From contig CAZUKA010000002.1 of the NCBI GenBank assembly GCA_964620905.1, positions 25,496 through 89,495 on the forward strand: a stretch of DNA of 64,000 bases, written 5' to 3'. The first letter of the stretch is position 1; each line of letters begins with the position of its first letter. This DNA is from an uncultured Gammaproteobacteria bacterium. GTDB lineage: Bacteria; Patescibacteriota; Patescibacteriia; S139-126. Both the position numbers and the translations under genes were made by a program. Below, piece after piece: positions 48,081 to 59,852 of this stretch. The notes under the pieces were generated by a model. That model saw only the letters and a program-made list of their open reading frames with translations, ran no database searches and was not told the DNA's origin.

Positions 48081-48390
48081 ATTATTCTATTTATATTAAA
48101 TATACAAAATATCTTTGGAATATTAAGATTGTTTGAAAAAAATTTATAGGTAAGACATAAATTTAAAATATAAACTACTCCATATTCGGAGCGTTTTTTT
48201 CTTATCTAAACAAACTGTCAAATTTTGTAAAATAATGAGGTGCTTAAGTGAATTACATTAAAACTAAGGTGATTTTTGGCTTTGTTAATGAAGTTGAATT
48301 ATAACCAATTAGTATTGACTTTTTCCTAAAAATTTGCTATTATTTAATGTTTAGTAATAATTAACAATCAAAAAATTACTGGAGAAAAAA

Positions 48391-48606
48391 ATGAAAAAGG
48401 ATGTTGGTCCCACTATCTTATTAATTGTTGGATTTTGTATATGTATTATGTCAGTTTTGAGCTGGCAGATGACTTGGTACATTAATCCATGGATTGGAAC
48501 AATTGGTTTATTATTTGGTTTAGTTCTAATTTTTTTATCTTTAATTTTTTCATTTATTATAAAAATAATAAATGGTATATTGAAAACAATAATCAATTTT
48601 TTTTAA
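48391..48606 (+). CDS. small 2-TM membrane protein (71 aa)
   Basis: GGAG RBS at -8, two hydrophobic helices, terminator hairpin downstream. Confidence 0.45.
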   Translation: MKKDVGPTILLIVGFCICIMSVLSWQMTWYINPWIGTIGLLFGLVLIFLSLIFSFIIKIINGILKTIINFF

Positions 48607-48745
48607 CCTAAAAAATATAAATTTTTTATAACTGCTCTCTTATAGAGCGGTTTTTTATTAACTAAGGTGTCTGGATTTTTGAGGAGAAGGTAGTATTTCA
48701 GGTGAAATTTTGATAAAATAAAAGTAATATAATTTACTAAAATAT

Positions 48746-48928
48746 ATGTATAAAATAAACAAACATATGTATAAGGAAATTGATAAGTACAATTATAAAG
48801 GTTGGTTAAACTCTGATAGCTTTATAAAAAGAGTAATCGCCGTCAATGGTTATTTTTTAACAGGGCAATTACTCCTTTTATTTATTGCTAGTATTGTCAC
48901 TTTCATTTTAGTTTCTAATTTTATTTAG
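48746..48928 (+). CDS. small membrane protein (60 aa)
   Basis: Short ORF with a C-terminal TM, located between repeat modules. Confidence 0.3.
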   Translation: MYKINKHMYKEIDKYNYKGWLNSDSFIKRVIAVNGYFLTGQLLLLFIASIVTFILVSNFI

Positions 48929-48963
48929 TTACTAAATTTATTTTATTTTAAGTTGTTAGTTTT

Positions 48964-49100
48964 AAAACCACTCCTCTCGGAGCGGTTTTTTCTATGTCAA
49001 AATATGTAAAATGGGGTCCCACCAGGTGCGATTTTGGAACCCCTTGATTGAGGAGTTGAAGTTGTGGATGGAGGGGTTGGAGATGGTGGTTTAGATTAGA
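48964..49100 (+). repeat. terminator + conserved block module, copy (tRNA-His-proximal repeat family)
   Basis: aaaaccactcctctcggagcggttttttctatgtcaaaatatgtaaaatggggtcccaccaggtgcgattttggaaccccttgattgaggagttgaagttgtgg... Confidence 0.8.
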
Positions 49101-49157
49101 TAGCAAATAAAAAAGGTCTACTAAAATTAGCAGACCTAAATTTTTTAAAAATTTTAA

Positions 49158-49400
49158 CTAATCTGTATCAGCTTTTATGCATCCACCAATAACTATACCG
49201 ATTCCAGCAATTGCCGCTACAATAAAAAGAGGTGATTGATGCCCCTCTAATGGCAAAAATACTTGTACAATTGATGCAAATCCACAAACACTTATTATTG
49301 CCCCAGTAAACCTAGGAAGAATTTTTGCTAATATGATAAGTACCAGACCAATTATTTGTAGACCCGCACAGATGATTGATAAAGTTTCCAAGTTAAACAT
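49158..49400 (-). CDS. small 3-TM membrane protein (80 aa)
   Basis: ORF on the minus strand inside the repeat-delimited array. Confidence 0.4.
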   Translation of the reverse strand: MFNLETLSIICAGLQIIGLVLIILAKILPRFTGAIISVCGFASIVQVFLPLEGHQSPLFIVAAIAGIGIVIGGCIKADTD

Positions 49401-49477
49401 TTTAACCCCACTATTTATTTGTATTGTTAATGTGAATTAATGGAGTATAATAGCATAAGTATATTGAATTGTCAATA

Positions 49478-49630
49478 TAAAACCGCTCCTTTCGGAGCGG
49501 TTTTTTCTATGTAAAAATATGTAAAATGGGGTGGCACCAGGTGCGATTTTGGAATCCCTTGATTGAGGAGTTGAAGTTGTGGGTAAGTGGTATTAGAGAT
49601 TGCTGTTTAGGTAGGATTTTGGTAGAATTA
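49478..49630 (+). repeat. terminator + conserved block + extended -10 (TGGTAGAAT) module, copy
   Basis: Near-identical to the 48964-49100 and 56382-56532 copies. ATG of the downstream gene is 6 nt after TAGAAT. Confidence 0.8.
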
Positions 49631-49634
49631 AAGT

Positions 49635-50003
49635 ATGAATGAATATATAATGCCATCAGAATTTTCTAATTTTTTTAAGCCAACTAAACGTAAAGTACTA
49701 GTATCTTTACTAATACCGTTTATAATATTAGGACTGCCTTTATTATTTTTAGTAATCAGAGCCTTTTTGTGTTTTAACTGGAATGGTTATAATTGTTCAG
49801 GTGCCACAGATGCAATATTTGAGATTCTTTCATATCCTTTCTTATTATTATTTATTGTACCATTAGAAAAACTAGAATTATTTTTTTCACCAAAAACATT
49901 TAGTGGCGAAGTTATATTATTTATAAGTTTAATTATTTTTTATTTATTTTTGAGTTATCTTTTTGTTTCATTTTATTATCATAAAAGGAATAAAAATATT
50001 TAA
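49635..50003 (+). CDS. membrane protein (122 aa)
   Basis: ORF immediately downstream of a module promoter; 3 TM helices. Confidence 0.45.
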   Translation: MNEYIMPSEFSNFFKPTKRKVLVSLLIPFIILGLPLLFLVIRAFLCFNWNGYNCSGATDAIFEILSYPFLLLFIVPLEKLELFFSPKTFSGEVILFISLIIFYLFLSYLFVSFYYHKRNKNI

Positions 50004-50025
50004 ATTTTTATATAATAAATAAAAA

Positions 50026-50170
50026 TTGCCCCCTCTCGGAGCGGTTTTTTCTTATCTAAATCTACTGTCAAATTATGTAAAATGGGGTGCCTTCGTAGAC
50101 GCTATTAGAACTAAGATTATTTATAGTTTTGAGGAAGAGATGGCTCAATAGGTAAGTTTTTGGTAGAATT
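50026..50170 (+). repeat. repeat module, variant copy
   Basis: ccccctctcggagcggttttttcttatctaaatctactgtcaaattatgtaaaatggggtgcc ... tttttggtagaatt. Confidence 0.75.
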
Positions 50171-50175
50171 AGTAT

Positions 50176-50802
50176 ATGATTAGATTTTTCAGTAAAATAT
50201 TTTTACCATTTAAAGTGGCTGGCGGATATGCAATAGTATTAACATTATTTGTTGTTGGAGTTTCAGCATTTGTTTATTCTGGTGGATTTCTAGATTTGCC
50301 CTTAATTTTTATTTTTTTACCACCATTTCCGGCAATAATTACACTTCCAATTACAATTGTAATATGTTGGTTTATTGCATCATTATTAATTAAATTACAA
50401 AGAAAAATATTACCAAATAAAGAACGTTTATTTACCTATTCAATTATCATAATTCTAGTTTTAATTATATTTATATTTTCTGTTCCTGTTTATGCAACAC
50501 GTATAATTAAAATAATTCCAACCTCTCAGATTTGTTGGATTGCGGATAACTGGGATAATTGGGCGCCTAGTAATAAATACGAAGGTACTAAATGTTATAC
50601 TGCGTTAGCAATTAAAAAAAACGATTTAGATCTATGTGGTGATCTTAATTATGAATTCTTGAGAGAGGGATGTTATGTACAGATGGCAATTTTTAATAAT
50701 GATATCACTATTTGTGAAAAGTATATTCATAAAGTTCCTAATTATATATATCCCGATACTAATATTAATGATTGTAAAAAAAGAGTTCAACGAGGAAAAT
50801 AA
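50176..50802 (+). CDS. membrane protein with Cys-rich C-terminal domain (208 aa)
   Basis: Multi-TM N-terminal half; C-terminus with 8 Cys (CWIADNW...CYTALA...CGDLNYEFLREGCYVQ...CEKY...CKK). Confidence 0.45.
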   Translation: MIRFFSKIFLPFKVAGGYAIVLTLFVVGVSAFVYSGGFLDLPLIFIFLPPFPAIITLPITIVICWFIASLLIKLQRKILPNKERLFTYSIIIILVLIIFIFSVPVYATRIIKIIPTSQICWIADNWDNWAPSNKYEGTKCYTALAIKKNDLDLCGDLNYEFLREGCYVQMAIFNNDITICEKYIHKVPNYIYPDTNINDCKKRVQRGK

Positions 50803-50819
50803 TTTTAATTTAATAATTA

Positions 50820-50900
50820 CAAACCGCCCCCTCTCGGAGCGGTTTTTTCTTATCTAAATCTACTGTCAAATTTTGTAAAATGGGGTCGCTTGGGAACTTA
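50820..50900 (+). repeat. repeat module, partial copy (terminator + proximal block)
   Basis: aaaccgccccctctcggagcggttttttcttatctaaatctactgtcaaattttgtaaaatggggtcgc. Confidence 0.75.
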
Positions 50901-51048
50901 AGTTATAACTTTAAAATGATTAGTGATATATCACACCCCTAATGAATTTAAAATGGTTAAAATAAATTTTTGTATAAATACTATGCCAGGCAAGAATATA
51001 AATTACCGATCTAAGATTGTTTGATGCCCCTATATTTTTTATTTGCAA

Positions 51049-54000
51049 TTATTTTTTAAACCAAGGGGAATGGGTATAACCTTCTTTACCCGACCAGAGG
51101 TAGAGAGTGGGAATATCGGAATAAAGTTCTTGATGAATATCGCTTGAATAAGTCCAAAAAATAATATTTTTAAATTCTTTTTTAAGAGCTTCGGATTCAA
51201 TTTTTCTCATCACATAATATCTCTTGGCTTCATTTTTATAATCCTTAAATCCTCTATGTTTGGCTGATTTTTCTAGCTCGGCACTGTTTTTTAAATCTCG
51301 CCACTCTCTTTCTGTTAATAATTTAAGATTATTTTTTATTATAATGTCAGATAATTTTTGTCTTTTCCATAGTTCACTTAAATATTTACTGGTATATCCA
51401 GCTTTTTTAATAAGTTTTTTTATTTCTTTTAGATATTGTTCATAAGTATTTTTATTATACTTATTCAACCTTGCATGTTCGTTAGCTAAAATAAAAATAA
51501 AATTAAGACCCGGCTTATAAATGTTTTTAATTTGATTATTTAACTGTTGAAATTTTTTTAATGCCGCTAAGTCTTTTTCGTCTATTTTTAATTTATCAGA
51601 TGCTCCCCAGAAACCAACTAAATCAATCGGTTTATTTTTTAAAACAAACTGATTGATTGCAAAGGCGATCTCGTCCTCCTTATAGGGGACATCTCTTGAA
51701 ATATTTCTTTGATTGAATAATTTTAAAATTTCATCAGCTATAGATGGTTTAATAAATTGTGGCAAACTCGCCCTCATTAACCAAGGATAGATTTTATACC
51801 ACGCTTGTCTAGCATTTTCTATACCCGCACTATTGATTTTTAATTTTTTATCCCAAAATTTTATTAATTCATTAAACATAACATCATGATTTAGCATAGT
51901 TGGAAATTCATTTGTAAAATATTTCAAAGCCTTAATTTTGTTTTTCTTTATAAAATTTATTGTTTCTTTTAAAGCCGAAACAAAAGATATGATTGCGGGT
52001 TGAAATTTTGGATCAAGATTATCGCAGATTGTAATACCTGTAAATAAATAATCTCTAAAATAATCTTCAAAAGAATAAACAATATGTCCCCCGCGACCAA
52101 CTAAGTCTAATGCATAATCTACAGTCATAATACCAATATCCACCTTTCTTTCTTTTAATGCCTTAACTAAGGCATTAGATTTAATAGGAATAAATTTTTT
52201 ATTGGGTAATATTTTTTTAGCAAGTGTATTGGTTGTTGAAAATTCTTGATAGGTACCAATTTTGTAATTATAAAAATCATCTAATTTTTTAATTTTTATA
52301 TTTGGGTCTAATGTAACTGCGACCACGGGAACACGACCGATTAATTGTCCAACAATTTTTCCTTTGGTTTTAAAATTTGAAGCAAAAGAAAAAACTGGAT
52401 CAGCGATACCTATTTGAGCAGAGCCTGACATTAAGGAATTATAAGTTAAATCATCGCCCCCCGAAGAAATAAAATCTATATCTAGTTTGTGTTTTTTATA
52501 ATAACCTAATTTGGCTGCTAAGTAGGCCGGAAAATAAAGGGGCATTCTTGAAAATTCAGCCACCAACATTCTGTATTCTCCCGGCTTATCATCGATAGTA
52601 CTTAATGTTTCTTTAGTGATTATTCGATGATAATTTTTATGTAGTTTATTAAATTTAAGATTTTTGTACTTGTTGAAATAAACTAATTCTTCTTCGGTTA
52701 AAAAACCATATCTCTGTTTAGTTGGATAATCTAGTTTACCTTTATTTTCTGATAATACTGCCTTGGCCACATCGCCATCTTGTGTTCTAAAATTAAAACC
52801 AACATTCATACCTGCACCATTGGAAAATGGAACTTTGTAACGCCAGGCAATATAATCGGGCAAGAATTCTTCGGCTACCTTTCTTAAAATATATTTAGTA
52901 GTAACTTGATGATTTTCTCTTTTAATTTTTAGACTACCATCAATTTGTAGGGCAAATTCTGCGACTTTGGTATCAAAAAATGGAGCTCGAGTTTCCAATG
53001 TATGTTTCATAGACATTCTATCCACGCGCATATTATGGCTTCGTTCCAAATCATTAGTGATTAGATAGCAACCCTTATTTACATGTTCATCACTTAATCT
53101 TGAAAACTCATTATAGCCCCCAAATAGTTCATCTGCTGCTTCACCAACTAATGCTATACGATAACCAGCTCGAACCACTTCTTTTGAAAGGATGTCTAGC
53201 GCAAAAGATTGTCTTATAACTTGAGCCTCATACATTTCTAGATGATAGATTAAGTTTTCAAATTCTTTTGCATAATCAACATTCGGATAAACAATATGAT
53301 ATTTATAATTATTGTCTTTGCATAACTTTAAAGAAGCTTCATAATCAGAAGAGCCTGGGAAGCCAAGTATAAAGGCAGTTACGTTTTTATGAAATCTTGT
53401 AGCTATCTCCATTATAAGACTACTGTCAACACCACCGCTTAATAAAACTGCGATTGGCAAATCAGTATCAACTCTTTTTTTTACTGCTTCGACCATTAAT
53501 TCAGTTAATTTTGTTTTTGCAAAATCTAAATCTTTAATTTTGTTGTTGTAATTTATTTTGTGATAAGCTTTTATTCTCCCATTATACATATAACATCCTT
53601 TGGGGAAAATTTTTACTTCTTTTATAAAATCGAATTGTACTAGCTGTTTTATTTCCGAACCAAAATAAAAGTTTTTATTTTTATCTCTAGCATAAAATAA
53701 AGGTTTTACACCAAAACGATCTCTAGCTACAAAAAAATTATTTTTCTTAGTATCATAAATTACAAAGGCATACATTTCCGAATCAATTTTTTCGATCATT
53801 TTTTCTCCGTACTCCTCATACAAATGTGCTAATACTTCCGTGTCACAATCCGTTTTGAATTTATGCTTCTTTTTTTCTAATTGAGATCGTAATTCTTTAT
53901 AATTAAATATTTCACCGTTTTGGGCAGCAAAAATAGTACCATCTTCATTAGATAGCGGTTGATGACCAGTATCACGACCAACAATTGGTAAGCGATTGGC

Positions 54001-54132
54001 TCCTAAGGCACCTTTCTCAAAAACTCTTAATTCATAAAAATTAGTACCTCGATGTTTAATCTTACTTAAAGAATCTCTCATGAATAATTCTTTTTTTTGG
54101 TAATTGCCGAAAACAGCTGTAATTCCACACAT
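51049..54132 (-). CDS. asparagine-synthetase (glutamine-hydrolysing) homologue fused to an NMT1/SsuA-like periplasmic-binding-fold domain and a ~280-aa C-terminal domain of unknown function (1027 aa)
   Basis: Ntn amidotransferase MCGITAVFG, PP-loop SGGVDSS, AsnB C-domain. Residues ~520-760 resemble NMT1/THI5/SsuA binding proteins. The C-terminal third has no recognisable family. Confidence 0.75.
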   Translation of the reverse strand: MCGITAVFGNYQKKELFMRDSLSKIKHRGTNFYELRVFEKGALGANRLPIVGRDTGHQPLSNEDGTIFAAQNGEIFNYKELRSQLEKKKHKFKTDCDTEVLAHLYEEYGEKMIEKIDSEMYAFVIYDTKKNNFFVARDRFGVKPLFYARDKNKNFYFGSEIKQLVQFDFIKEVKIFPKGCYMYNGRIKAYHKINYNNKIKDLDFAKTKLTELMVEAVKKRVDTDLPIAVLLSGGVDSSLIMEIATRFHKNVTAFILGFPGSSDYEASLKLCKDNNYKYHIVYPNVDYAKEFENLIYHLEMYEAQVIRQSFALDILSKEVVRAGYRIALVGEAADELFGGYNEFSRLSDEHVNKGCYLITNDLERSHNMRVDRMSMKHTLETRAPFFDTKVAEFALQIDGSLKIKRENHQVTTKYILRKVAEEFLPDYIAWRYKVPFSNGAGMNVGFNFRTQDGDVAKAVLSENKGKLDYPTKQRYGFLTEEELVYFNKYKNLKFNKLHKNYHRIITKETLSTIDDKPGEYRMLVAEFSRMPLYFPAYLAAKLGYYKKHKLDIDFISSGGDDLTYNSLMSGSAQIGIADPVFSFASNFKTKGKIVGQLIGRVPVVAVTLDPNIKIKKLDDFYNYKIGTYQEFSTTNTLAKKILPNKKFIPIKSNALVKALKERKVDIGIMTVDYALDLVGRGGHIVYSFEDYFRDYLFTGITICDNLDPKFQPAIISFVSALKETINFIKKNKIKALKYFTNEFPTMLNHDVMFNELIKFWDKKLKINSAGIENARQAWYKIYPWLMRASLPQFIKPSIADEILKLFNQRNISRDVPYKEDEIAFAINQFVLKNKPIDLVGFWGASDKLKIDEKDLAALKKFQQLNNQIKNIYKPGLNFIFILANEHARLNKYNKNTYEQYLKEIKKLIKKAGYTSKYLSELWKRQKLSDIIIKNNLKLLTEREWRDLKNSAELEKSAKHRGFKDYKNEAKRYYVMRKIESEALKKEFKNIIFWTYSSDIHQELYSDIPTLYLWSGKEGYTHSPWFKK

Positions 54133-54222
54133 AAATTATGATTTTAATAAATAATTTATTTTGTAAAAAATAAAATTTTAAAAGAGTTATATAAATATTT
54201 TTTAATAGTCTAATTATATCAC

Positions 54223-54375
54223 AAAACCGCCCCATCTCGGAGCGGTTTTTTTAATGTTATAAATCGGCCTGAATGGCTGTGCCATCTGAAGCTTTAGCGT
54301 AGGATGGGGTGGCACCAGGTGCTATTTTTGAACCCCTTGATTGAGGAGTTAAAGTTGTGGGTGGAGTCAATGGTA
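54223..54375 (+). repeat. repeat module copy (upstream of the AsnB-fusion start)
   Basis: aaaaccgccccatctcggagcggttttttt ... ggatggggtggcaccaggtgctatttttgaaccccttgattgaggagttaaagttgtgggtggag. Confidence 0.75.
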
Positions 54376-54518
54376 ACGTGTTAATATTGACTTTTTCGTA
54401 AAAATATGCTACAATTCAATATTCTAAATCGTACATACACAATAAAAAATAAGCCATCGAGAGGATGGCGATGTTCAAAAAACATTGACACGAGAAGTGT
54501 CAGAAAGGATTCAACATC

Positions 54519-54920
54519 GTGAAGGCAAAACAAATTATAACAGCTTTACAGTTCGCAGCCAGCGAACTTGTCATCGAACTCTGTTCAGATTTACGCCTCG
54601 TATTCCGAGAGAATGCACCATTACCAAGGCAGGGTTTAAATTTGAAAATATTATACAGAGCAAACGCTAGTGTACTAAAAGATGGATTTCCTGAATTAGG
54701 ACTTACTCACTACTCTAACGCATATCTGTTCCAAGTCGAAATAGAAGTTGTAGGATGGGAAAAGAAAAATAAACTACGTTGTTGGTTTGCTAAAAGCCAA
54801 ACGCAAGAGCATCCAGGCTGGTGGCCTCTTAAAGGGGAATTGAATTATAATCGTACAAAAATTGAATTTCATTGCCGTGCCAAAGAAAATAATGCAATAG
54901 AAATTTTTGAACATCGATAG
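54519..54920 (+). CDS. hypothetical protein (133 aa), locally GC-elevated
   Basis: ORF preceded by the palindrome TGACAC-N5-GTGTCA (54485-54501), which overlaps a TTGACA box. Confidence 0.4.
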   Translation: MKAKQIITALQFAASELVIELCSDLRLVFRENAPLPRQGLNLKILYRANASVLKDGFPELGLTHYSNAYLFQVEIEVVGWEKKNKLRCWFAKSQTQEHPGWWPLKGELNYNRTKIEFHCRAKENNAIEIFEHR

Positions 54921-54952
54921 CCCAAAGAACAAACGTTAATTTCGTTTCCTAT

Positions 54953-54980
54953 AAAACCGCTCCTCATCTGAGCGGTTTTT
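54953..54980 (+). terminator. family terminator hairpin (aaaaccgctcctcatctgagcggttttt)
   Basis: Same hairpin family as the module terminators. Confidence 0.7.
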
Positions 54981-55063
54981 AAATTTATATTTTTTAATTC
55001 AATTGGGGTCAATTCAAAATCACCAAACCTGGCAAACCAAGTTTTTTAGCTTATATAAAACAA

Positions 55064-55196
55064 AAGCACCTCCTCGGTAGAGGAGATGTTCTTATGGGGT
55101 GGCACCAGGTGCGATTTTGGAACTCTTTGATTGAGGAATTGAAAAAGTGGGTGGAGGGGTTAGAGATGGTTGTTTAGGTAGGATTTTGGTAGAATT
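55064..55196 (+). repeat. repeat module conserved block + extended -10, copy
   Basis: ttatggggtggcaccaggtgcgattttggaactctttgattgaggaattgaaaaagtgggtggaggggttagagatggttgtttaggtaggattttggtagaatt. Confidence 0.8.
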
Positions 55197-55212
55197 AAAT
55201 TGAATTTATCAT

Positions 55213-55917
55213 TTGACTATGTCTAAAAGGTATTATCCAAATATTAAGTTTAGTGTTAGTTTAGCGAGAGAAAAAAAGATTTTTTTAGAGAGAAAAAGAA
55301 ATTTGCAAAAGTTTTTGCCCGCAGAAATAAGTTTTGTTACAAATAGAAAATACGCAAGTTATAGAAATGAATTATTATCCTCTTATTTGGATGTTTATTA
55401 TTCAGATAAGAAAAAGTTTTTAATAGAAAGTGTTAGAAATACAAAAAGTAAATGGCAGAAAGTAGAGAAAAAATTTTTTATAAAAGTTGATAAGATTTTT
55501 AATAATTGGCCTTGGCCTAAAGGTAATTATAGGGGGTATGTTTCTATTGCCCATTCTTTTCCTCGCAACATAAAGGATAAGACTTTTTCTTTTCCAGTAA
55601 AAGATTATATACCAGGACGAGAGAACAATGATATACGTGTGATAGCACACGAGATGCTTCATTTTATAGAATATGATTATTTACAGAAAAAATTTGGATT
55701 GAAAGCAAGTGAACACGATTCATTTGATAATACCTTTTGGCAATTTACCGAAAATTTAAATGTATTAATTCAAAATACTAGTTTTTGGAAAGAATTTAGT
55801 ACAGGTGTTAAATCAAAGCCATATGACGATTGTAAAAAAATGTATAATAAGATGAAAAGCATATGGGATAGAGATAAGAGTATTGATAGACTAGTTGATA
55901 AAATTTTTTATAGTTAA
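55213..55917 (+). CDS. hypothetical protein with HExxH zinc-metallopeptidase-like motif (234 aa)
   Basis: VIAHEMLHFIEYDY. No signal peptide. Driven by a module promoter. Confidence 0.45.
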   Translation: MTMSKRYYPNIKFSVSLAREKKIFLERKRNLQKFLPAEISFVTNRKYASYRNELLSSYLDVYYSDKKKFLIESVRNTKSKWQKVEKKFFIKVDKIFNNWPWPKGNYRGYVSIAHSFPRNIKDKTFSFPVKDYIPGRENNDIRVIAHEMLHFIEYDYLQKKFGLKASEHDSFDNTFWQFTENLNVLIQNTSFWKEFSTGVKSKPYDDCKKMYNKMKSIWDRDKSIDRLVDKIFYS

Positions 55918-55926
55918 TCAATTACA

Positions 55927-55955
55927 AAAGTCGCCCCATCTTGGAGCGGTTTTTC
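55927..55955 (+). terminator. family terminator hairpin (tcgccccatcttggagcggttttt)
   Basis: Same hairpin family. Confidence 0.65.
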
Positions 55956-56079
55956 TAACTTGACTATTCTATATAAGGGTTATAGGATAGTATGTTAGTT
56001 CATTAAAAAAATGTAAATAAAACCATCAAAAAATAAATAATTATTATAAACAAATTCAAAGAAAGATTAGGGTATTTAT

Positions 56080-56367
56080 ATGTCAGAACTTCATAATATT
56101 CAAGTCAAAATGGTTAAAGAAAACAAACCAGATTTAACTTTAGATGATTTGGAAATTTTTCACGCAGATTGTGGAGGAGGTAAAATTTCAAATAAAAATC
56201 TTCTAGGTGGTAAAAATTTAAAATGCACGAGATGTCTTGAAGAAGTGTATTTTTCATACAGTGAAATAGGAACAATATATAAAACCGCCCTTACGGGTGA
56301 AAAGCTGGAACTTGTGTGTTACAGAATAAATGGTAATAGATCCCATTTTATAGAAGTTCTTAATTAA
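56080..56367 (+). CDS. small zinc-ribbon protein (95 aa)
   Basis: CGGG...CTRC and a second C pair. Confidence 0.4.
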   Translation: MSELHNIQVKMVKENKPDLTLDDLEIFHADCGGGKISNKNLLGGKNLKCTRCLEEVYFSYSEIGTIYKTALTGEKLELVCYRINGNRSHFIEVLN

Positions 56368-56381
56368 TAAATTGTTTAATT

Positions 56382-56532
56382 AAACCGCCCCATCTCGGAG
56401 CGGTTTTTTCTTTGTCAAAATATGTAAAAATGGGGTGGCACCAGGTGCGATTTTGGAACCCCTTGATTGAGGAGCTAAAGTTGTGGGTGGAGGGGTTAGA
56501 GGTGGTTGTTTAGGTGAGCATTTGGTAGAATA
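56382..56532 (+). repeat. repeat module copy (terminator + conserved block + TGGTAGAAT)
   Basis: ttaaaccgccccatctcggagcggttttttctttgtcaaaatatgtaaaaatggggtggcaccaggtgcgattttggaaccccttgattgaggagctaaagttgtgggtggaggggttagaggtggttgtttaggtgagcatttggtagaat. Confidence 0.8.
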
Positions 56533-56556
56533 TAGGTAATATTAAACATAAATTCT

Positions 56557-57396
56557 ATGAGTAAGTCATTAAAAATTATTGTCCCTGTAATATTGGTATT
56601 AGTAGTAGGTGGTGCTGTGGCAGGATATTTGTATTGGCAAAATATAAACCCTGATGTTATAGAGGAACCACTGCCCCAACAACAAGTTAAAAGTGATGAT
56701 AAACAAGTACAAAATAATGAGACTGACAGTACAACCAATACAAATATAGACCGAATTAATTATTTAAAAGAAAATGTTCCTACTGAGATTTTAAATTATA
56801 ATTCTGATAAAGATAATAATGATTCAGATTTAGATGGTTTACCAGACAATCTCGAAGATATCTTAGGGACCAACCATAATAAATCAGATTCTGATGATGA
56901 TGGTTTTAATGATATAGATGAATTAAAAGCCGGCTATAATCCGCTTGGTAATGGAACGATTTTTGATTCAACAGATGATAAAATTAAGAGTAATGGATTG
57001 TGGTATTTTATTAGATATCAGCAATCAAATGATGCACAGCGTTTTAGTAATATTAGTACAATACGTACAGCTCTAGATTTATATTATAAAGATTATGGTG
57101 TTTACCCATCTGCAGAAGGTGAAATTATTCTTGGAAAAGATGTAAAAAGTTTAACAAAGTCAGGTTGGGGTAATGAGGTAGGTAGCGGAATGAATTATAT
57201 GAACTTAGTGTATGATAATACTTCTCCTGGTGGTATTCCTTTTACATATTGCACCACTGATAATAATGATATAGAGAAGTGTTCTAAATCCATTTCTTCT
57301 TATATAATAAAATTTAAACTTGAGATTGGAGTTCAAACAGATTTTGGAGTTTTAGGTCCAGGATTGCACATCGCTACACCAAATGGTTTTCAATAA
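56557..57396 (+). CDS. membrane-anchored protein with thrombospondin-3-like Ca-binding segment and C-terminal pseudopilin/type-IV-pilin-like globular domain
   Basis: N-terminus MSKSLKIIVPVILVLVVGGAVAGYLYWQ (family signal-anchor). DSDLDGLPDNLEDILGTNHNKSDSDDDGFNDIDELKAGYNPL. The segment QRFSNISTIRTALDLYYKDYGVYPS matches the GspG/pilin alpha-beta loop motif. No canonical G-FTLIE prepilin N-terminus. Confidence 0.5.
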   Translation: MSKSLKIIVPVILVLVVGGAVAGYLYWQNINPDVIEEPLPQQQVKSDDKQVQNNETDSTTNTNIDRINYLKENVPTEILNYNSDKDNNDSDLDGLPDNLEDILGTNHNKSDSDDDGFNDIDELKAGYNPLGNGTIFDSTDDKIKSNGLWYFIRYQQSNDAQRFSNISTIRTALDLYYKDYGVYPSAEGEIILGKDVKSLTKSGWGNEVGSGMNYMNLVYDNTSPGGIPFTYCTTDNNDIEKCSKSISSYIIKFKLEIGVQTDFGVLGPGLHIATPNGFQ

Positions 57397-57426
57397 ATAT
57401 ATTTTAATAGTGTTTATTCTATTTAC

Positions 57427-57475
57427 AAAACCGCCCCCTCTCGGAGCGGTTTTTTCTATGTCAAAATATGTAAAA
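57427..57475 (+). repeat. terminal repeat-module copy (terminator + proximal block) abutting the tRNA-His 3' end
   Basis: ccgccccctctcggagcggttttttctatgtcaaaatatgtaaaa, followed directly by tggggtggc, which is the 3' end of tRNA-His. Confidence 0.8.
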
Positions 57476-57550
57476 TGGGGTGGCTAGAGGGAGTCGAACC
57501 CTCGCCAGCGGGACCACAACCCGCTGTTCTACCGTTAAACTATAGCCACC
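57476..57550 (-). tRNA. tRNA-His (anticodon GTG), encoded CCA, G-1:C73
   Basis: Reverse complement folds as G(-1)GTGGCTA acceptor, anticodon stem GCGGG/CCCGC with loop TTGTGGT, T-arm GGGTTCGACTCCC, 3' TAGCCAC-C-CCA. Confidence 0.85.
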
Positions 57551-58725: not shown

Positions 58726-58800
58726 TGGTGCCCCGACCAGGACTCGAACCTGGATCTAGAGCTTAGAAGGCTCCTATTCTATCCCTTGAACTATCGGGGC
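58726..58800 (-). tRNA. tRNA-Arg (anticodon TCT), encoded CCA
   Basis: Reverse complement: GCCCCGA acceptor, anticodon arm GGAGC-CTTCTAA-GCTCT, T-arm CCAGGTTCGAGTCCTGG, 3' TCGGGGC-A-CCA. Confidence 0.85.
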
Positions 58801-58850: not shown

Positions 58851-58880
58851 GAATTAGGAATTAAGAATTAGGAATTAAGG
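58851..58880. repeat. 4 tandem copies of an 8-mer (gaattagg/gaattaag); an inverted partial copy lies at 58703-58722 on the other side of tRNA-Arg
   Basis: gaattaggaattaagaattaggaattaagg vs cttaattcgtaattctaatta. Confidence 0.6.
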
Positions 58881-59852
58881 TTTTTTTCTATGATGGAAAT
58901 TTTTGTGAATTTCTTTGAGTTGGCGATTGGTAATGTGCGTATAAATTTGGGTAGTAGTGATAGAAGCGTGTCCGAGCATAGCCTGCACTGATCTGATATC
59001 AGCCCCGTTTTGCAAAAGATCAGTGGCAAAGGAATGTCGGAGTGTATGAGGGGTGACTTTTTTGGTGATACCAGCAGCTTTACTATAAAATTTAATAAGT
59101 CTTTCCACGCTTCTTGGTGTCAGAGCGTGGACAACTTTATTATCCTTTTTCAATCTTTTATTTTTGGCTCGATCGTGTCCGACAAAAAGCGATGGATCAA
59201 CATCTTGTCTCTTGTCCAGGTAAGTTCGCAGGGAATTTTTGGCATTGTCAGACAAAAAGACCAAACGATTTTTACCGCCTTTACCTGTTACGGTAAATTC
59301 GTCTTTTTTTAAATTGATTTGTTCACGGGTTAGATTGGTGAGTTCAGACACGCGCAGTCCGGTTGAAAAAAGCATTTCCAAAATCGCTTTATCGCGATAA
59401 CGAATGATTTCATTTTGTTCCAATTTTATTGGCGCATTGAGTAGTCTCTCCAAATCATCACCTTCGAGGAAGTCAACTTCTCTTTCTGGTTGTTTTGCCA
59501 GTTCAATCTTTTCTGACGCTAGTGTCTTAATGTCTTGCTTGGCTAGATATTTTAAAAAAGTTCGCAATGCGATAAGATGATAGTTTTGAGTTGATTTTTT
59601 CAACGGTTTTCCTTGTTTGTCGGTTTGACGATTGAGCCAAAGACGAAACTGTTTTATTTTGTGTAAAGTTATATCAGCTGGTTTAAGGTTTTTTTTACCC
59701 AACCAGGAAAAAAATCTCAATAAATAAAAACTATAATTTCTAATTGTGCGTAATGACCGTCCCTTTTCAATTTCCAAATAGTTTAAAAAATCTTTGGCCC
59801 ACCGACCCAAAGAATTAAAACTGTCCAGTTTTTTGATAGCGTTGTCTGACAT
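58875..59852 (-). CDS. tyrosine site-specific recombinase, XerC/XerD-like
   Basis: N-terminal SAM-like core-binding domain; catalytic R...HTLRHSFAT...LGHASITTTQIYTH with Tyr. Confidence 0.8.
   Translation of the reverse strand: MSDNAIKKLDSFNSLGRWAKDFLNYLEIEKGRSLRTIRNYSFYLLRFFSWLGKKNLKPADITLHKIKQFRLWLNRQTDKQGKPLKKSTQNYHLIALRTFLKYLAKQDIKTLASEKIELAKQPEREVDFLEGDDLERLLNAPIKLEQNEIIRYRDKAILEMLFSTGLRVSELTNLTREQINLKKDEFTVTGKGGKNRLVFLSDNAKNSLRTYLDKRQDVDPSLFVGHDRAKNKRLKKDNKVVHALTPRSVERLIKFYSKAAGITKKVTPHTLRHSFATDLLQNGADIRSVQAMLGHASITTTQIYTHITNRQLKEIHKNFHHRKKP

What the first reader, a model, noticed from the sequence alone, without database searches (positions are those of the whole stretch)
51049..54132. 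1027-aa fusion of an AsnB-type amidotransferase with an NMT1/SsuA-like binding-protein fold and an unknown 280-aa C-terminal domain, inside the cassette array
The N-terminal ~500 aa are a classical class-II glutamine amidotransferase/asparagine-synthetase: nucleophile MCGI and PP-loop SGGVDSS. The region ~520-760 (LYFPAYLAAKLGYYKKHKLDIDFISSGGDDLTYNSLMSGSAQIGIADPVFSFASNFKTKGKIVGQLIG...) looks like a type-2 periplasmic-binding-protein (NMT1/THI5/SsuA) domain. No family could be assigned to the remaining C-terminal region. AsnB paralogues act as amide-forming enzymes in RiPP (lasso) and surface-glycan pathways. Covalent fusion to a substrate-binding domain suggests a self-contained ligase for a specific carboxylate substrate. 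The gene is bracketed by repeat modules (50820 and 54223) and reads opposite to its neighbours.
Basis: partly seen in the sequence, partly recalled or inferred. Interest (0 to 1): 0.6.

Follow-up and report, generated by a model that had tools for sequence, protein, structure and literature searches.

The report
Asparagine-synthetase fusion with isonitrile-synthase-like domain
A 1027-residue protein of an ultra-small (Patescibacteria) bacterium joins a complete asparagine-synthetase-type enzyme to a ligand-binding domain and to an unnamed domain distantly related to isonitrile synthases; about a hundred ultra-small bacteria and archaea keep this arrangement, which points to an undescribed small-molecule pathway.

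Summary
ORF 51049..54132 (-) encodes 1027 aa in three domains.

- **Residues 1-520:** an AsnB-type glutamine amidotransferase with every core catalytic residue kept.
- **Residues 521-794:** an NMT1/THI5/SsuA-type binding-protein fold (AF2 pLDDT 92; Foldseek THI5 E 5e-16).
- **Residues 795-1027 ("ct"):** 233 aa, not 280. This is a confidently folded Rossmann-like domain (pLDDT 96). Its best structural matches are the isonitrile synthases PIsnA/PvcA, then TyrRS/TrpRS.

The fusion is real. About 95 full-length clusters occur in CPR bacteria and DPANN archaea. About 25 shorter proteins are AsnB-ct without the binding-protein domain, so ct, not that domain, is the constant partner.

ct has no Pfam or NCBIfam model. 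It defines a family of at least 723 clusters (50% identity). Members stand alone or are fused to AsnB, to AMP-binding (ANL) adenylating enzymes, or to PxpB. ct lacks the basic signature residues of isonitrile synthases, so I treat it as a sister family.

Best reading (about 0.4): an accessory, horizontally mobile two-step enzyme that makes an amino-acid-derived amide. The chemistry of ct is unknown.

The gene has its own promoter. It lies in an array of tRNA-His-end repeats next to a tyrosine recombinase.

The parts
51049..54132 (-). Whole gene: 1027 codons plus the stop codon (51049-51051).
   Evidence: ORF listing. A 100% identical protein, P0001, sits on a 266-kb NCBI contig.
53563..54132 (-). 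Ntn glutaminase domain, residues 1-190. Nucleophile Cys2 (Cys1 after Met removal); R47, N72, G73, E74 and D97 correspond to E. coli AsnB R49, N74, G75, E76 and D98.
   Evidence: Pfam GATase_7 and GATase_6. Alignment to 1ct9. All these residues are invariant in 103 complete family members.
52573..53550 (-). PP-loop synthetase (adenylating) domain, residues about 195-520. PP-loop SGGVDSS is at 232-238 (nt 53419-53439). E331, D334, E335, R369, E380, R382, D387 and K433 correspond to E. coli E348, D351, E352, R387, E398, R400, D405 and K449.
   Evidence: Pfam Asn_synthase E 5e-51. 1ct9 E 7e-61. Family conservation. Family-specific changes: T321/T322 to Q/V, S346 to V, D384 to H, K376 to I.
51751..52572 (-). 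Type-2 periplasmic-binding-protein-like domain (NMT1/THI5/SsuA type), residues 521-794. It is internal, so cytoplasmic.
   Evidence: Pfam NMT1 above the gathering score. A family profile hits THI5-like PDB chains. AF2 pLDDT 91.9. Foldseek: THI5 4h6d E 5e-16, TM 0.75; also SsuA, ThiY and TauA. Invariant residues are E, F, Y, P, Y, G, D, T, D, P, F, T, D, F, with no invariant Lys or His.
51052..51750 (-). C-terminal 'ct' domain, residues 795-1027: a Rossmann-like fold related to isonitrile synthases. Family-conserved residues are W842, K847, D884 (N in this protein), H886, N890, Y900, Y972, P1005, P1023 and W1024.
   Evidence: Alignment A1. AF2 pLDDT 96.4. Foldseek: PIsnA 9dh4 and PvcA 3e59 at E 4e-7 to 1e-6, then TyrRS/TrpRS. 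25 of 38 members give weak Pfam DIT1_PvcA hits, best 2e-7. hhalign against three isocyanide synthases: Prob 91%, E 1e-6. No NCBIfam model.
54213..54221 (-). Likely promoter of the gene: extended -10 TGATATAAT, about 80 nt upstream of the ATG and directly after the repeat hairpin.
   Evidence: Read from the sequence. Inferred only: the consensus scan, which requires a -35 box, did not list it.
54220..54250 (.). Upstream repeat hairpin (AAAACCGCCCCATCTCGGAGCGGTTTTT), part of a longer module at about 54215-54380.
   Evidence: Repeat family D3. Module alignment.
50821..50845 (.). Downstream repeat hairpin about 200 nt after the stop codon. It is terminator-like on both strands and shared with the convergent ORF 50176-50802.
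   Evidence: Terminator scan: 10-bp stem on the minus strand. Repeat families D3 and D5. Sequence.

Best explanation
The gene encodes a self-contained, two-step small-molecule enzyme, not a plain housekeeping asparagine synthetase.

Step 1 is shown at the level of conserved residues. The N-terminal Ntn domain hydrolyses glutamine to ammonia. The PP-loop domain adenylates a carboxylate with ATP, and ammonia converts the acyl-AMP into a carboxamide. The acid is most likely aspartate or a close alpha-amino-dicarboxylate. The acidic pocket for the alpha-ammonium group is largely kept (E348, D351, E352), but four pocket-lining positions carry family-specific changes.

Step 2 is inferred. The C-terminal ct domain is a divergent sister of isonitrile synthases, built on the amino-acid-binding Rossmann fold of TyrRS/TrpRS. 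It binds the same amino-acid-type molecule, or a partner amine, and carries out a second reaction on it. That reaction is probably on or near the alpha-amino group. It is not canonical ribulose-5-phosphate-dependent isonitrile formation.

The middle binding-protein-like domain is an optional ligand-capture or positioning module.

The gene is an accessory unit with its own promoter. It sits in a recombinase-associated repeat array and has been exchanged between CPR bacteria and DPANN archaea.
For: **AsnB machinery is intact and under selection.**
- Cys1, R49, N74, G75, E76, D98, the PP-loop, D279, D351, E352, R387, E398, R400, D405 and K449 are invariant in 103 members. E348 is E or D.
- The roles of the human equivalents come from PMC6748925.

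**ct is a real, independently folding, conserved domain.**
- pLDDT is 96.
- The invariant polar and aromatic residues lie at the C-terminal ends of strands 1 and 2 and on the facing helices.
- It is homologous to isonitrile synthases by fold, by profile-profile comparison and by the shared motif PG..xxSDxH...(N/D)...Y.

**ct is the constant partner of this AsnB clade.**
- All AsnB fusions with a complete C-terminus carry it.
- About 25 clusters lack the binding-protein domain.

**ct recurs with carboxylate-activating enzymes of unrelated folds.** Among the top 150 of 723 family representatives:
- 75 stand alone
- 45 are ANL-ct
- 14 are AsnB-ct
- 5 are AsnB-PBP-ct
- 9 are PBP-ct
- 2 are ct-PxpB

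ct subfamilies track their partner.

**ANL-ct genes sit in biosynthetic operons.**
- Carrier proteins are adjacent in two independent clusters.
- GNAT acyltransferases are present.
- An A domain plus a PigA/RedW-like prolyl-carrier dehydrogenase lies nearby.

**Accessory character of the AsnB fusion.**
- In 5 of 26 loci, from both archaea and bacteria, a B12-binding radical SAM gene follows directly on the same strand.
- The distribution is sporadic. Pattern-based scans, which only reach relatives matching two short motifs, confirmed 8 loci among GTDB species representatives and 15 in JGI metagenomes.
- A tyrosine recombinase is nearby in two lineages.
Against: - In about 20 of 26 loci no neighbour recurs, so most copies give no pathway context.
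- The AsnB half is closer to genuine E. coli AsnB (E 7e-61) than human ASNS is, and it passes the TIGR01536 equivalog cut-off. Plain asparagine synthesis therefore cannot be excluded.
- ct lacks the Lys, Arg and His residues that mark isonitrile synthases. Its chemistry is not defined, and a pure ligand-sensing role is possible.
- This particular copy has Asn where 110 of 114 relatives have Asp in the ADEHA motif.
- No full-length model with inter-domain contacts could be made, so physical coupling of the two sites is not shown.
- CPR and DPANN genomes are generally poor in secondary metabolism (my own knowledge).
Confidence: 0.4

Rival explanations
1. It is the cell's ordinary glutamine-dependent asparagine synthetase. 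The binding-protein-like and ct domains are non-catalytic sensor or allosteric modules. They bind an amino acid or other effector and tune activity.
For: - The best AsnB matches are true asparagine synthetases. TIGR01536 is above its cut-off, and all core catalytic residues are invariant.
- No other AsnB is present in the 64-kb window.
- Most loci have no biosynthetic neighbours.
- Both extra folds are classic ligand binders.
Against: - Half of the ct family is stand-alone. Much of the rest is fused to ANL enzymes inside carrier-protein/GNAT operons, which suits an enzyme better than a sensor.
- The fusion is rare and patchy among CPR and DPANN rather than universal.
- It lies in a repeat/recombinase island.
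- Substrate-pocket positions T321/T322, S346, D384 and K376 are never the AsnB residues in this clade.
- The NF006949 AsnB equivalog cut-off is missed: 364 bits against 499.
Confidence: 0.22
2. ct is an acyl-transfer module. It binds the acyl-adenylate made by the fused adenylating domain (AsnB or ANL), much as class-I tRNA synthetases hold aminoacyl-AMP. It then passes the acyl group to an acceptor held by ct or the binding-protein domain.
For: - ct always lies C-terminal to two unrelated AMP-forming enzyme families.
- Its fold matches the TyrRS/TrpRS catalytic domain and cyclodipeptide synthases.
- It occupies the position a carrier or acceptor domain has after the ANL C-terminal subdomain.
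Against: - The AsnB glutaminase domain is fully conserved, so ammonia, not a ct-bound acceptor, is the expected nucleophile.
- ANL-ct operons already encode separate carrier proteins.
- No HIGH or KMSKS motif is present in residues 795-1027 (read from the sequence).
- ct-PxpB and stand-alone forms have no adenylating partner in cis.
Confidence: 0.13
3. ct is a genuine isonitrile synthase. It converts the alpha-amino group of Asp or Asn into an isocyanide using ribulose 5-phosphate. The protein would then make an isocyano-asparagine-type metabolite.
For: - The top structural hits are PIsnA and PvcA.
- Pfam DIT1_PvcA and NCBIfam PvcA are the only sequence-family hits.
- One JGI relative is annotated 'L-tyrosine isonitrile synthase'.
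- Fungal isocyanide synthases fused to adenylation domains are a precedent (my own knowledge).
Against: - All hits are below the curated cut-offs: 17.4 bits against 26.4, and 19 against 600.
- In the global profile alignment the signature FPxKSPN, RLSIHPQ and TPWH residues are replaced by FWGASDK, IF.TYS and PWF.
- ct is about 80 residues shorter.
- No Fe/2OG dioxygenase partner recurs in the 26 loci.
Confidence: 0.08
4. The long ORF is an artefact: a misassembly, or a decaying fusion with no function.
For: - N884 replaces a near-invariant Asp.
- No clear Shine-Dalgarno sequence is present.
Against: - The ORF is uninterrupted and the protein is found identically on a second assembly.
- About 95 clusters share the architecture with invariant catalytic residues.
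- Both extra domains fold at pLDDT above 90.
Confidence: 0.01

Closest known systems
Glutamine-dependent asparagine synthetase B (E. coli AsnB, PDB 1ct9; human ASNS, 6gq3)
   Same: - Two-domain Ntn-glutaminase + PP-loop synthetase.
- The Cys1 nucleophile, glutamine-pocket residues and SGGxDS loop are conserved, as are E348, D351, E352, R387 and K449.
- TIGR01536 is above its cut-off.
   Different: - It carries about 500 extra C-terminal residues in two domains.
- T321/T322, S346, D384 and K376 are systematically replaced.
- It misses the stricter AsnB equivalog cut-off.
- It has a patchy, island-borne distribution.
Isonitrile (isocyanide) synthases: PvcA (3e59), PIsnA (9dh4/9dhm), IsnA, yeast Dit1 (Pfam PF05141)
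   Same: - Same overall Rossmann-like fold (Foldseek E about 4e-7, TM about 0.6).
- The N-terminal half is homologous (hhalign Prob 91%).
- Shared PG...SDxH...(N/D)...Y motif and a C-terminal PW motif.
   Different: - About 230 aa against about 310.
- It lacks the FPxKSPN Lys, the RLSIH Arg and His, and usually the PWH His.
- It has its own invariant W842, K847 and N890.
- All hits are below the family cut-offs.
- Partners are adenylating enzymes rather than Fe/2OG dioxygenases.
NMT1/THI5/SsuA/ThiY type-2 binding proteins (Pfam PF09084)
   Same: - Fold and Pfam membership.
- The conserved positions lie at the usual inter-lobe cleft.
   Different: - It is internal to a cytoplasmic enzyme, with no signal peptide.
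- The family has no invariant Lys or His, so THI5-type suicide chemistry is excluded (the THI5 residues are from my own knowledge).
- The ligand is unknown.
Fungal isocyanide-synthase / NRPS-like hybrids (e.g. CrmA of Aspergillus; family described in PMC5974471, details from my own knowledge)
   Same: An isocyanide-synthase-type domain is covalently joined to a carboxylate-adenylating domain. The logic is the same: work on both ends of one amino acid.
   Different: - The domain order is reversed.
- The adenylating partner here is AsnB (a PP-loop enzyme) or a stand-alone ANL.
- ct is not a canonical isocyanide synthase.
- The organisms are CPR and DPANN.
Class Ic aminoacyl-tRNA synthetase catalytic domains (TyrRS/TrpRS) and cyclodipeptide synthases
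   Same: Rossmann fold with an amino-acid pocket. These are the second tier of Foldseek hits (E 1e-5 to 1e-3, TM 0.5-0.6).
   Different: No HIGH or KMSKS motif, no anticodon-binding domain and no sequence similarity.

Membership tests
Class-II (Ntn) glutamine amidotransferase / asparagine synthetase B | N-terminal Cys nucleophile directly after the initiator Met | tested here: met
   MCGI. Cys2 is invariant in 103 of 103 members.
Class-II (Ntn) glutamine amidotransferase / asparagine synthetase B | Glutamine-pocket residues R49, N74, G75, E76, D98 (E. coli numbering) | tested here: met
   R47, N72, G73, E74 and D97 are all invariant.
Class-II (Ntn) glutamine amidotransferase / asparagine synthetase B | PP-loop SGGxDS and the adenylate-site residues E348, D351, K449 | tested here: met
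   SGGVDSS at 232-238. E331 is E or D across the family. D334 and K433 are invariant. Roles are from PMC6748925.
Class-II (Ntn) glutamine amidotransferase / asparagine synthetase B | Aspartate/ribose pocket residues T321/T322 (human T336), S346 (human S362), D384 (human D400) | tested here: not met
   They are replaced by Q/L/N + V/I, by V/A/C and by H/Q throughout the clade.
Class-II (Ntn) glutamine amidotransferase / asparagine synthetase B | Curated family score cut-offs | tested here: inconclusive
   TIGR01536 scores 321.7, above 267.1. NF006949 (AsnB) scores 363.6, below 499.
Class-II (Ntn) glutamine amidotransferase / asparagine synthetase B | Asparagine formed from Asp + Gln + ATP | not testable with these tools
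   Needs an enzyme assay.
NMT1/THI5/SsuA binding-protein family (PF09084) | Pfam gathering score and a type-2 binding-protein fold | tested here: met
   30.5 bits, above 20.5. Foldseek THI5 E 5e-16, TM 0.75; SsuA, ThiY and TauA also hit.
NMT1/THI5/SsuA binding-protein family (PF09084) | THI5 enzyme residues (PLP-binding Lys and donor His; from my own knowledge) | tested here: not met
   No invariant Lys or His among the 14 invariant columns of the domain family.
NMT1/THI5/SsuA binding-protein family (PF09084) | Secreted or lipoprotein component of an ABC importer | tested here: not met
   The domain is internal (residues 521-794) to a cytoplasmic enzyme. No ABC transporter genes recur next to it.
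Isonitrile synthase (DIT1_PvcA PF05141; NF045653) | Curated score cut-off | tested here: not met
   17.4 bits, below 26.4, for this protein. The best family member has E 2e-7. NCBIfam PvcA scores 19 bits, below 600.
Isonitrile synthase (DIT1_PvcA PF05141; NF045653) | Overall fold | tested here: met
   PIsnA and PvcA are the top Foldseek hits: E 4e-7 to 2e-5, TMq 0.57-0.64.
Isonitrile synthase (DIT1_PvcA PF05141; NF045653) | Signature motifs FPxKSPN, SDG[HR]VFxD, RLSIHPQ, TPWH (seen in three fetched synthases and in PIsnA) | tested here: not met
   ct has FWGASDK, ADEHAxxN (only the D and H are shared), IF.TYS and PWF.
Isonitrile synthase (DIT1_PvcA PF05141; NF045653) | Adjacent Fe/2OG dioxygenase (PvcB/IsnB type) | tested here: not met
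   The only recurrent neighbours in 26 loci are a B12 radical SAM protein and a recombinase. By contrast, the Hymenobacter isonitrile synthase has a TauD neighbour.
Class I aminoacyl-tRNA synthetase catalytic domain | HIGH and KMSKS motifs | tested here: not met
   Neither motif occurs in residues 795-1027 or in the family consensus. Only the fold is similar.
Integron gene cassette | Promoterless cassette bounded by attC sites next to an IntI integrase | tested here: inconclusive
   - A tyrosine recombinase is present at 58875-59852.
- The repeats are copies of the tRNA-His 3' end plus a terminator, not shown to be attC.
- The gene has its own -10 element and is inverted relative to its neighbours.
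- IntI-specific features were not examined.

The most novel reading that the evidence does not exclude
ct founds a new enzyme class on the TyrRS / isonitrile-synthase fold. It works in cis with AMP-forming enzymes (AsnB, ANL), taking their adenylate or amide product and an amine to build a previously unknown type of N-modified amino-acid amide. Ultra-small CPR bacteria and DPANN archaea trade this three-domain 'one-protein pathway' between the two domains of life, sometimes together with a B12 radical SAM tailoring enzyme, to make a metabolite used in their episymbiotic lifestyle.
Probability: 0.15. Interest if true: 0.8.

Novelty: new variant of a known kind. Interest (0 to 1): 0.6.

Why it matters
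CPR bacteria and DPANN archaea are thought to have almost no biosynthetic capacity of their own. A conserved 1000-residue protein that packs an amidotransferase, a ligand-binding module and a second enzyme-like domain into one chain is unusual for them, especially as it is shared across the bacteria/archaea divide. It is a candidate for a metabolite or modification specific to their lifestyle.

Independently of that, the C-terminal domain defines a sizeable protein family of at least 723 clusters at 50% identity. No Pfam or NCBIfam model covers it. It is a sister group of isonitrile synthases, and it repeatedly fuses to carboxylate-adenylating enzymes. That gives natural-product enzymologists a concrete, testable new family.

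It also corrects current annotations ('asparagine synthase-related', 'ABC transporter substrate-binding protein'), which describe only part of the protein.

Tried and rejected
- **Profile of ct against PDB sequences:** it found only chance xylanase matches, and PvcA was missed by sequence. Fold search was needed.
- **The search for related loci with the broad ct alignment:** failed for lack of a conserved stretch. A narrower alignment worked.
- **ct against plasmids (tblastn) and viral contigs:** no relatives. The viral structure library gave only tRNA-synthetase and cyclodipeptide-synthase folds.
- **Search with a stand-alone ct (P0130):** only one relative returned.
- **Literature searches** for PIsnA, isonitrile-synthase active-site residues, AsnB residue roles and CPR/DPANN asparagine synthase found nothing on this fusion or on isonitrile-synthase catalytic residues. 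Only the human ASNS paper was useful.
- **Source names for the window's own proteins:** none on record. Taxonomy came from PNPase homologues, where every hit named to a taxon below 'bacterium' is Patescibacteria.
- **THI5-like chemistry for the middle domain:** rejected, because the family has no invariant Lys or His.
- **Lasso-cyclase or exopolysaccharide-amidotransferase identity for the AsnB half:** rejected, because scores are far lower than for true AsnB.
- **Gene-fusion artefact:** rejected.
- **Rfam hit BSnc120 at 49436-49524:** 31.9 bits against a gathering score of 114, so taken as chance.


Full report
**1. The observation**

The minus-strand ORF 51049..54132 exists as described and encodes 1027 residues starting MCGI. 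Pfam finds GATase_7 (residues 46-165), Asn_synthase (from residue 209) and NMT1 (534-728; 30.5 bits, above the gathering score of 20.5). It also gives a sub-threshold DIT1_PvcA hit at 854-923. NCBIfam places the N-terminal half closest to true asparagine synthetases. NF006949 scores 364 bits and TIGR01536 scores 322 bits, the latter above its cut-off. Exopolysaccharide amidotransferases score 183-233 bits and lasso cyclase 120 bits. The best solved relative is E. coli AsnB, 1ct9 (E 4e-60).

**2. The fusion is real and conserved**

A search of 5.8 billion proteins returned about 95 clusters of 1016-1059 residues at 40-81% identity over the whole length. It also returned about 25 clusters of 720-785 residues. 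Pairwise alignments show that the short form is AsnB (1-520) joined directly to the last 233 residues, with the NMT1-like segment absent. Mapping the three segments on all 120 hits gives sharp borders at 520/521 and 794/795. The C-terminal domain ("ct") is therefore the constant partner of this AsnB clade, and the binding-protein domain is an optional insert.

Named members come from two groups:
- CPR bacteria: Falkowbacteria, Moranbacteria/Moraniibacteriota and Pacebacteria
- DPANN archaea: Micrarchaeota, Pacearchaeota, Woesearchaeota and Nanoarchaeota

The window itself is from a Patescibacteria bacterium. Every homologue of its PNPase that is named to a taxon below 'bacterium' is from that group.

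**3. The AsnB half**

I aligned the domain to 1ct9 and tabulated 103 complete family members.

Invariant:
- the Cys nucleophile
- the glutamine pocket (R49, N74, G75, E76, D98 in E. coli numbering)
- the PP-loop
- D279, D351, E352, R387, E398, R400, D405 and K449

E348 is E or D.

The human ASNS study assigns roles to the equivalents:
- K466 contacts the adenylate phosphate.
- D367 pairs with the alpha-amino group.
- E364 is essential.
- D400 is part of the ammonium pocket.
- S362 binds the ribose 2'-OH.
- T336 is needed for activity.

In this clade the equivalents of T336/T337, S362 and D400, and also E. coli K376, are never the AsnB residues. They are Q/L/N + V/I, V/A/C, H/Q and a hydrophobic residue respectively.

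So the enzyme is an active glutamine-dependent, adenylate-forming amidotransferase with a retouched acid-binding pocket. Aspartate remains the most likely acid but is not proven.

**4. The middle domain**

A profile of 19 family members hits THI5-like chains in the PDB. An AlphaFold2 model is confident (pLDDT 91.9). Foldseek places it with THI5 (E 5e-16, TM up to 0.75), AF1704, ThiY, PqqT, SsuA and TauA.

The 14 invariant positions are acidic or aromatic and include no Lys or His. THI5-type chemistry is therefore excluded. A ligand-binding cleft is likely, but the ligand is unknown.

**5. The C-terminal domain**

An alignment of 38 diverse ct sequences shows invariant W48, H92, N96, Y106 and Y178. 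K53, D90, P211, P229 and W230 are near-invariant. Add 794 for full-length numbering. The AlphaFold2 model is very confident (pLDDT 96.4) and is a five-stranded Rossmann-like fold with a helical insert.

Foldseek against the PDB gave these matches:
- isonitrile synthases PIsnA (9dh4, 9dhm) and PvcA (3e59): E 4e-7 to 2e-5, TMq about 0.6
- TyrRS and TrpRS catalytic domains: E 6e-5 and weaker

25 of the 38 members give weak Pfam DIT1_PvcA hits, best 2e-7. NCBIfam has no model for ct.

To test membership I fetched three annotated isocyanide synthases from plasmids. Profile-profile alignment gives Prob 91%, E 1e-6 over the N-terminal 125 residues. A global alignment pairs the motifs as follows:

| ct | Isonitrile synthase |
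|---|---|
| ADEHA..N | SDG[HR]VF.D |
| A..YY.MR | AY.V..RS |
| IF.TYS | VRLSIH |
| PWF | TPWH |

The fold, the D-x-H, one Tyr and the PW are shared. The Lys, Arg and His signature residues of isonitrile synthases are not. I therefore file ct as a sister family, not as an isonitrile synthase.

This particular copy has N884 where 110 of 114 relatives have Asp.

**6. The wider ct family**

An exhaustive HMM search of 1.84 billion cluster representatives found 723 proteins at E <= 1e-3 and 537 at E <= 1e-10. I classified the top 150 and confirmed the classes with Pfam:

| Architecture | Count |
|---|---|
| stand-alone ct | 75 |
| AMP-binding (ANL) - ct | 45 |
| AsnB - ct | 14 |
| binding-protein - ct | 9 |
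| AsnB - binding-protein - ct | 5 |
| ct - PxpB | 2 |

ct subfamilies follow their partner in a neighbour-joining tree.

Contexts:
- Two independent ANL-ct genes are followed by carrier proteins and accompanied by GNAT acyltransferases.
- One ANL-ct gene lies next to an amino-acid adenylation domain, a carrier protein and a PigA/RedW-like prolyl-carrier dehydrogenase.
- A stand-alone ct overlaps the end of an ORF that reads like an ANL enzyme. This rests on my reading of the motif and was not profile-tested.
- ct-PxpB is followed by PxpC and TauE.
- A binding-protein-ct protein is monocistronic, beside a GNAT and an MFS transporter.

The recurring theme is carboxylate activation and amide or acyl transfer around an amino-acid-binding fold.

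**7. Context of the AsnB fusions**

I pooled the window with 25 other loci and clustered all flanking ORFs. Only two neighbours recur:
- A B12-binding radical SAM protein lies directly downstream on the same strand in five loci: L011, L014, L040, L041 and L043. Of the two that carry organism names, L011 is archaeal and L014 bacterial.
- A tyrosine recombinase lies within about 5 kb in the window and in the L010/L032/L033 lineage.

Everywhere else the gene stands alone among unrelated genes. The window holds no paralogue, and the flanking small ORFs have no family assignment.

**8. Local anatomy**

On the minus strand, the repeat hairpin upstream of the gene is followed at once by TGATATAAT, an extended -10 element about 80 nt before the ATG. 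About 200 nt after the stop lies the next hairpin, which is terminator-like on both strands. The gene therefore looks monocistronic. Both the promoter and the terminator are inferred from sequence.

The repeats are more than terminators. Read on the minus strand, each full module consists of:
- a conserved stretch of about 60 nt
- GCCACCCCA, which is identical to the 3' end of tRNA-His (57476-57549)
- the roughly 55 nt that follow that tRNA, including its hairpin

The array ends at the real tRNA-His, and a tyrosine recombinase gene lies 1.3 kb beyond it. This looks like serial site-specific insertion at tRNA-His, or an integron-like array. It fits an accessory, mobile gene.

**9. Interpretation**

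Shown:
- three folded domains
- an intact amidotransferase
- a binding-protein fold
- a new isonitrile-synthase-like family that repeatedly accompanies adenylating enzymes
- a patchy CPR/DPANN distribution
- an island context

Inferred:
- The AsnB half amidates an aspartate-like acid.
- ct performs or directs a second step on the same amino-acid-type molecule.
- The binding-protein domain helps capture a ligand.

I put about 0.4 on this two-step biosynthetic reading, 0.22 on an ordinary asparagine synthetase with sensor domains, 0.13 on ct as an acyl-adenylate acceptor module, 0.08 on a true isonitrile synthase and about 0.01 on an artefact. The remainder is unassigned.

**10. Novelty**

None of the libraries or papers I could search describes this architecture or the ct family. 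Source annotations call the protein 'asparagine synthase-related' or 'ABC transporter substrate-binding protein'. It is a new variant built from known kinds of parts, and the chemistry of one part is unknown.

Noticed in passing
window 48900-57550 (modules at about 48960-49090, 49475-49600, 54215-54380, 55060-55170, 56375-56500; short copies near 50000-50090 and 50800-50890): The 'cassette' repeats are direct copies of the last 9 nt of tRNA-His (GCCACCCCA) plus the roughly 55 nt downstream of that tRNA, including its terminator hairpin. Each is preceded by a conserved 60-nt stretch. The array ends at the real tRNA-His (57476-57549, minus strand). This suggests serial site-specific insertion at tRNA-His, or an integron-like array.
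   Followed up: partly
window 58875-59852 (-), next to tRNA-Arg 58726-58800 (-): A 325-aa tyrosine recombinase (Phage_integrase + SAM-like N-terminal domain) lies 1.3 kb beyond the end of the repeat array. A homologous recombinase lies about 4 kb upstream of the orthologous fusion gene in a Pacearchaeota contig (L010) and in L032/L033.
   Followed up: partly
L011:8740-10467, L014:8724-10595, L040:5475-7112, L041:3267-4994, L043:7721-9634: A B12-binding radical SAM protein (546-638 aa, no specific NCBIfam family) directly follows the fusion gene on the same strand in 5 of 26 loci. L011 is a Woesearchaeota archaeon and L014 a Moraniibacteriota bacterium.
   Followed up: partly
L020:8001-10435 and L028:7722-10491: ANL-ct fusion genes are followed by small carrier proteins (PP-binding) in two unrelated clusters. 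GNAT acyltransferases are nearby. In L020 there is also an A domain, a carrier protein and a PigA/RedW-like prolyl-carrier dehydrogenase.
   Followed up: partly
L006:513-3933; L019:8001-9545: ct is also fused N-terminally to PxpB (5-oxoprolinase subunit B-like), followed by PxpC and a TauE/SafE exporter. A close stand-alone ct sits next to TauE alone, among transposases.
   Followed up: no
homologues P0088-P0090, P0093, P0094; locus L002: Several family members show Trp where the family has invariant Gly (e.g. FWWASDK, STWWD). The gene in L002 does not translate to its recorded product under table 11. These probably come from UGA-recoded CPR lineages whose gene callers read UGA as Trp.
   Followed up: no
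window 51481-51483 (residue N884): This copy has Asn in the ct motif (L-A-N-E-H-A) where 110 of 114 relatives have Asp. Three other members share the change.
   Followed up: yes
window 54387-54415 (+): A strong sigma-70-type promoter, TTGACT-17-TACAAT with TG before the -10, points away from the fusion gene towards ORF 54519-54920. It lies inside the repeat module.
   Followed up: no
window 49436-49524 (+): A weak Rfam match to Brucella sRNA BSnc120 (31.9 bits against a gathering score of 114) falls on one repeat module. It is probably chance, driven by the hairpin.
   Followed up: no
window 48100-57400: Nearly all ORFs in the array are short, hydrophobic proteins with no family assignment. 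The exceptions are a weak, sub-threshold DUF5700 (putative zinc peptidase) match at 55213-55917, and a secreted-looking protein at 56557-57396 with sub-threshold SpoIIIAH-like and TSP3-repeat matches. GC content drops to 24-31% between 48 and 52 kb.
   Followed up: no
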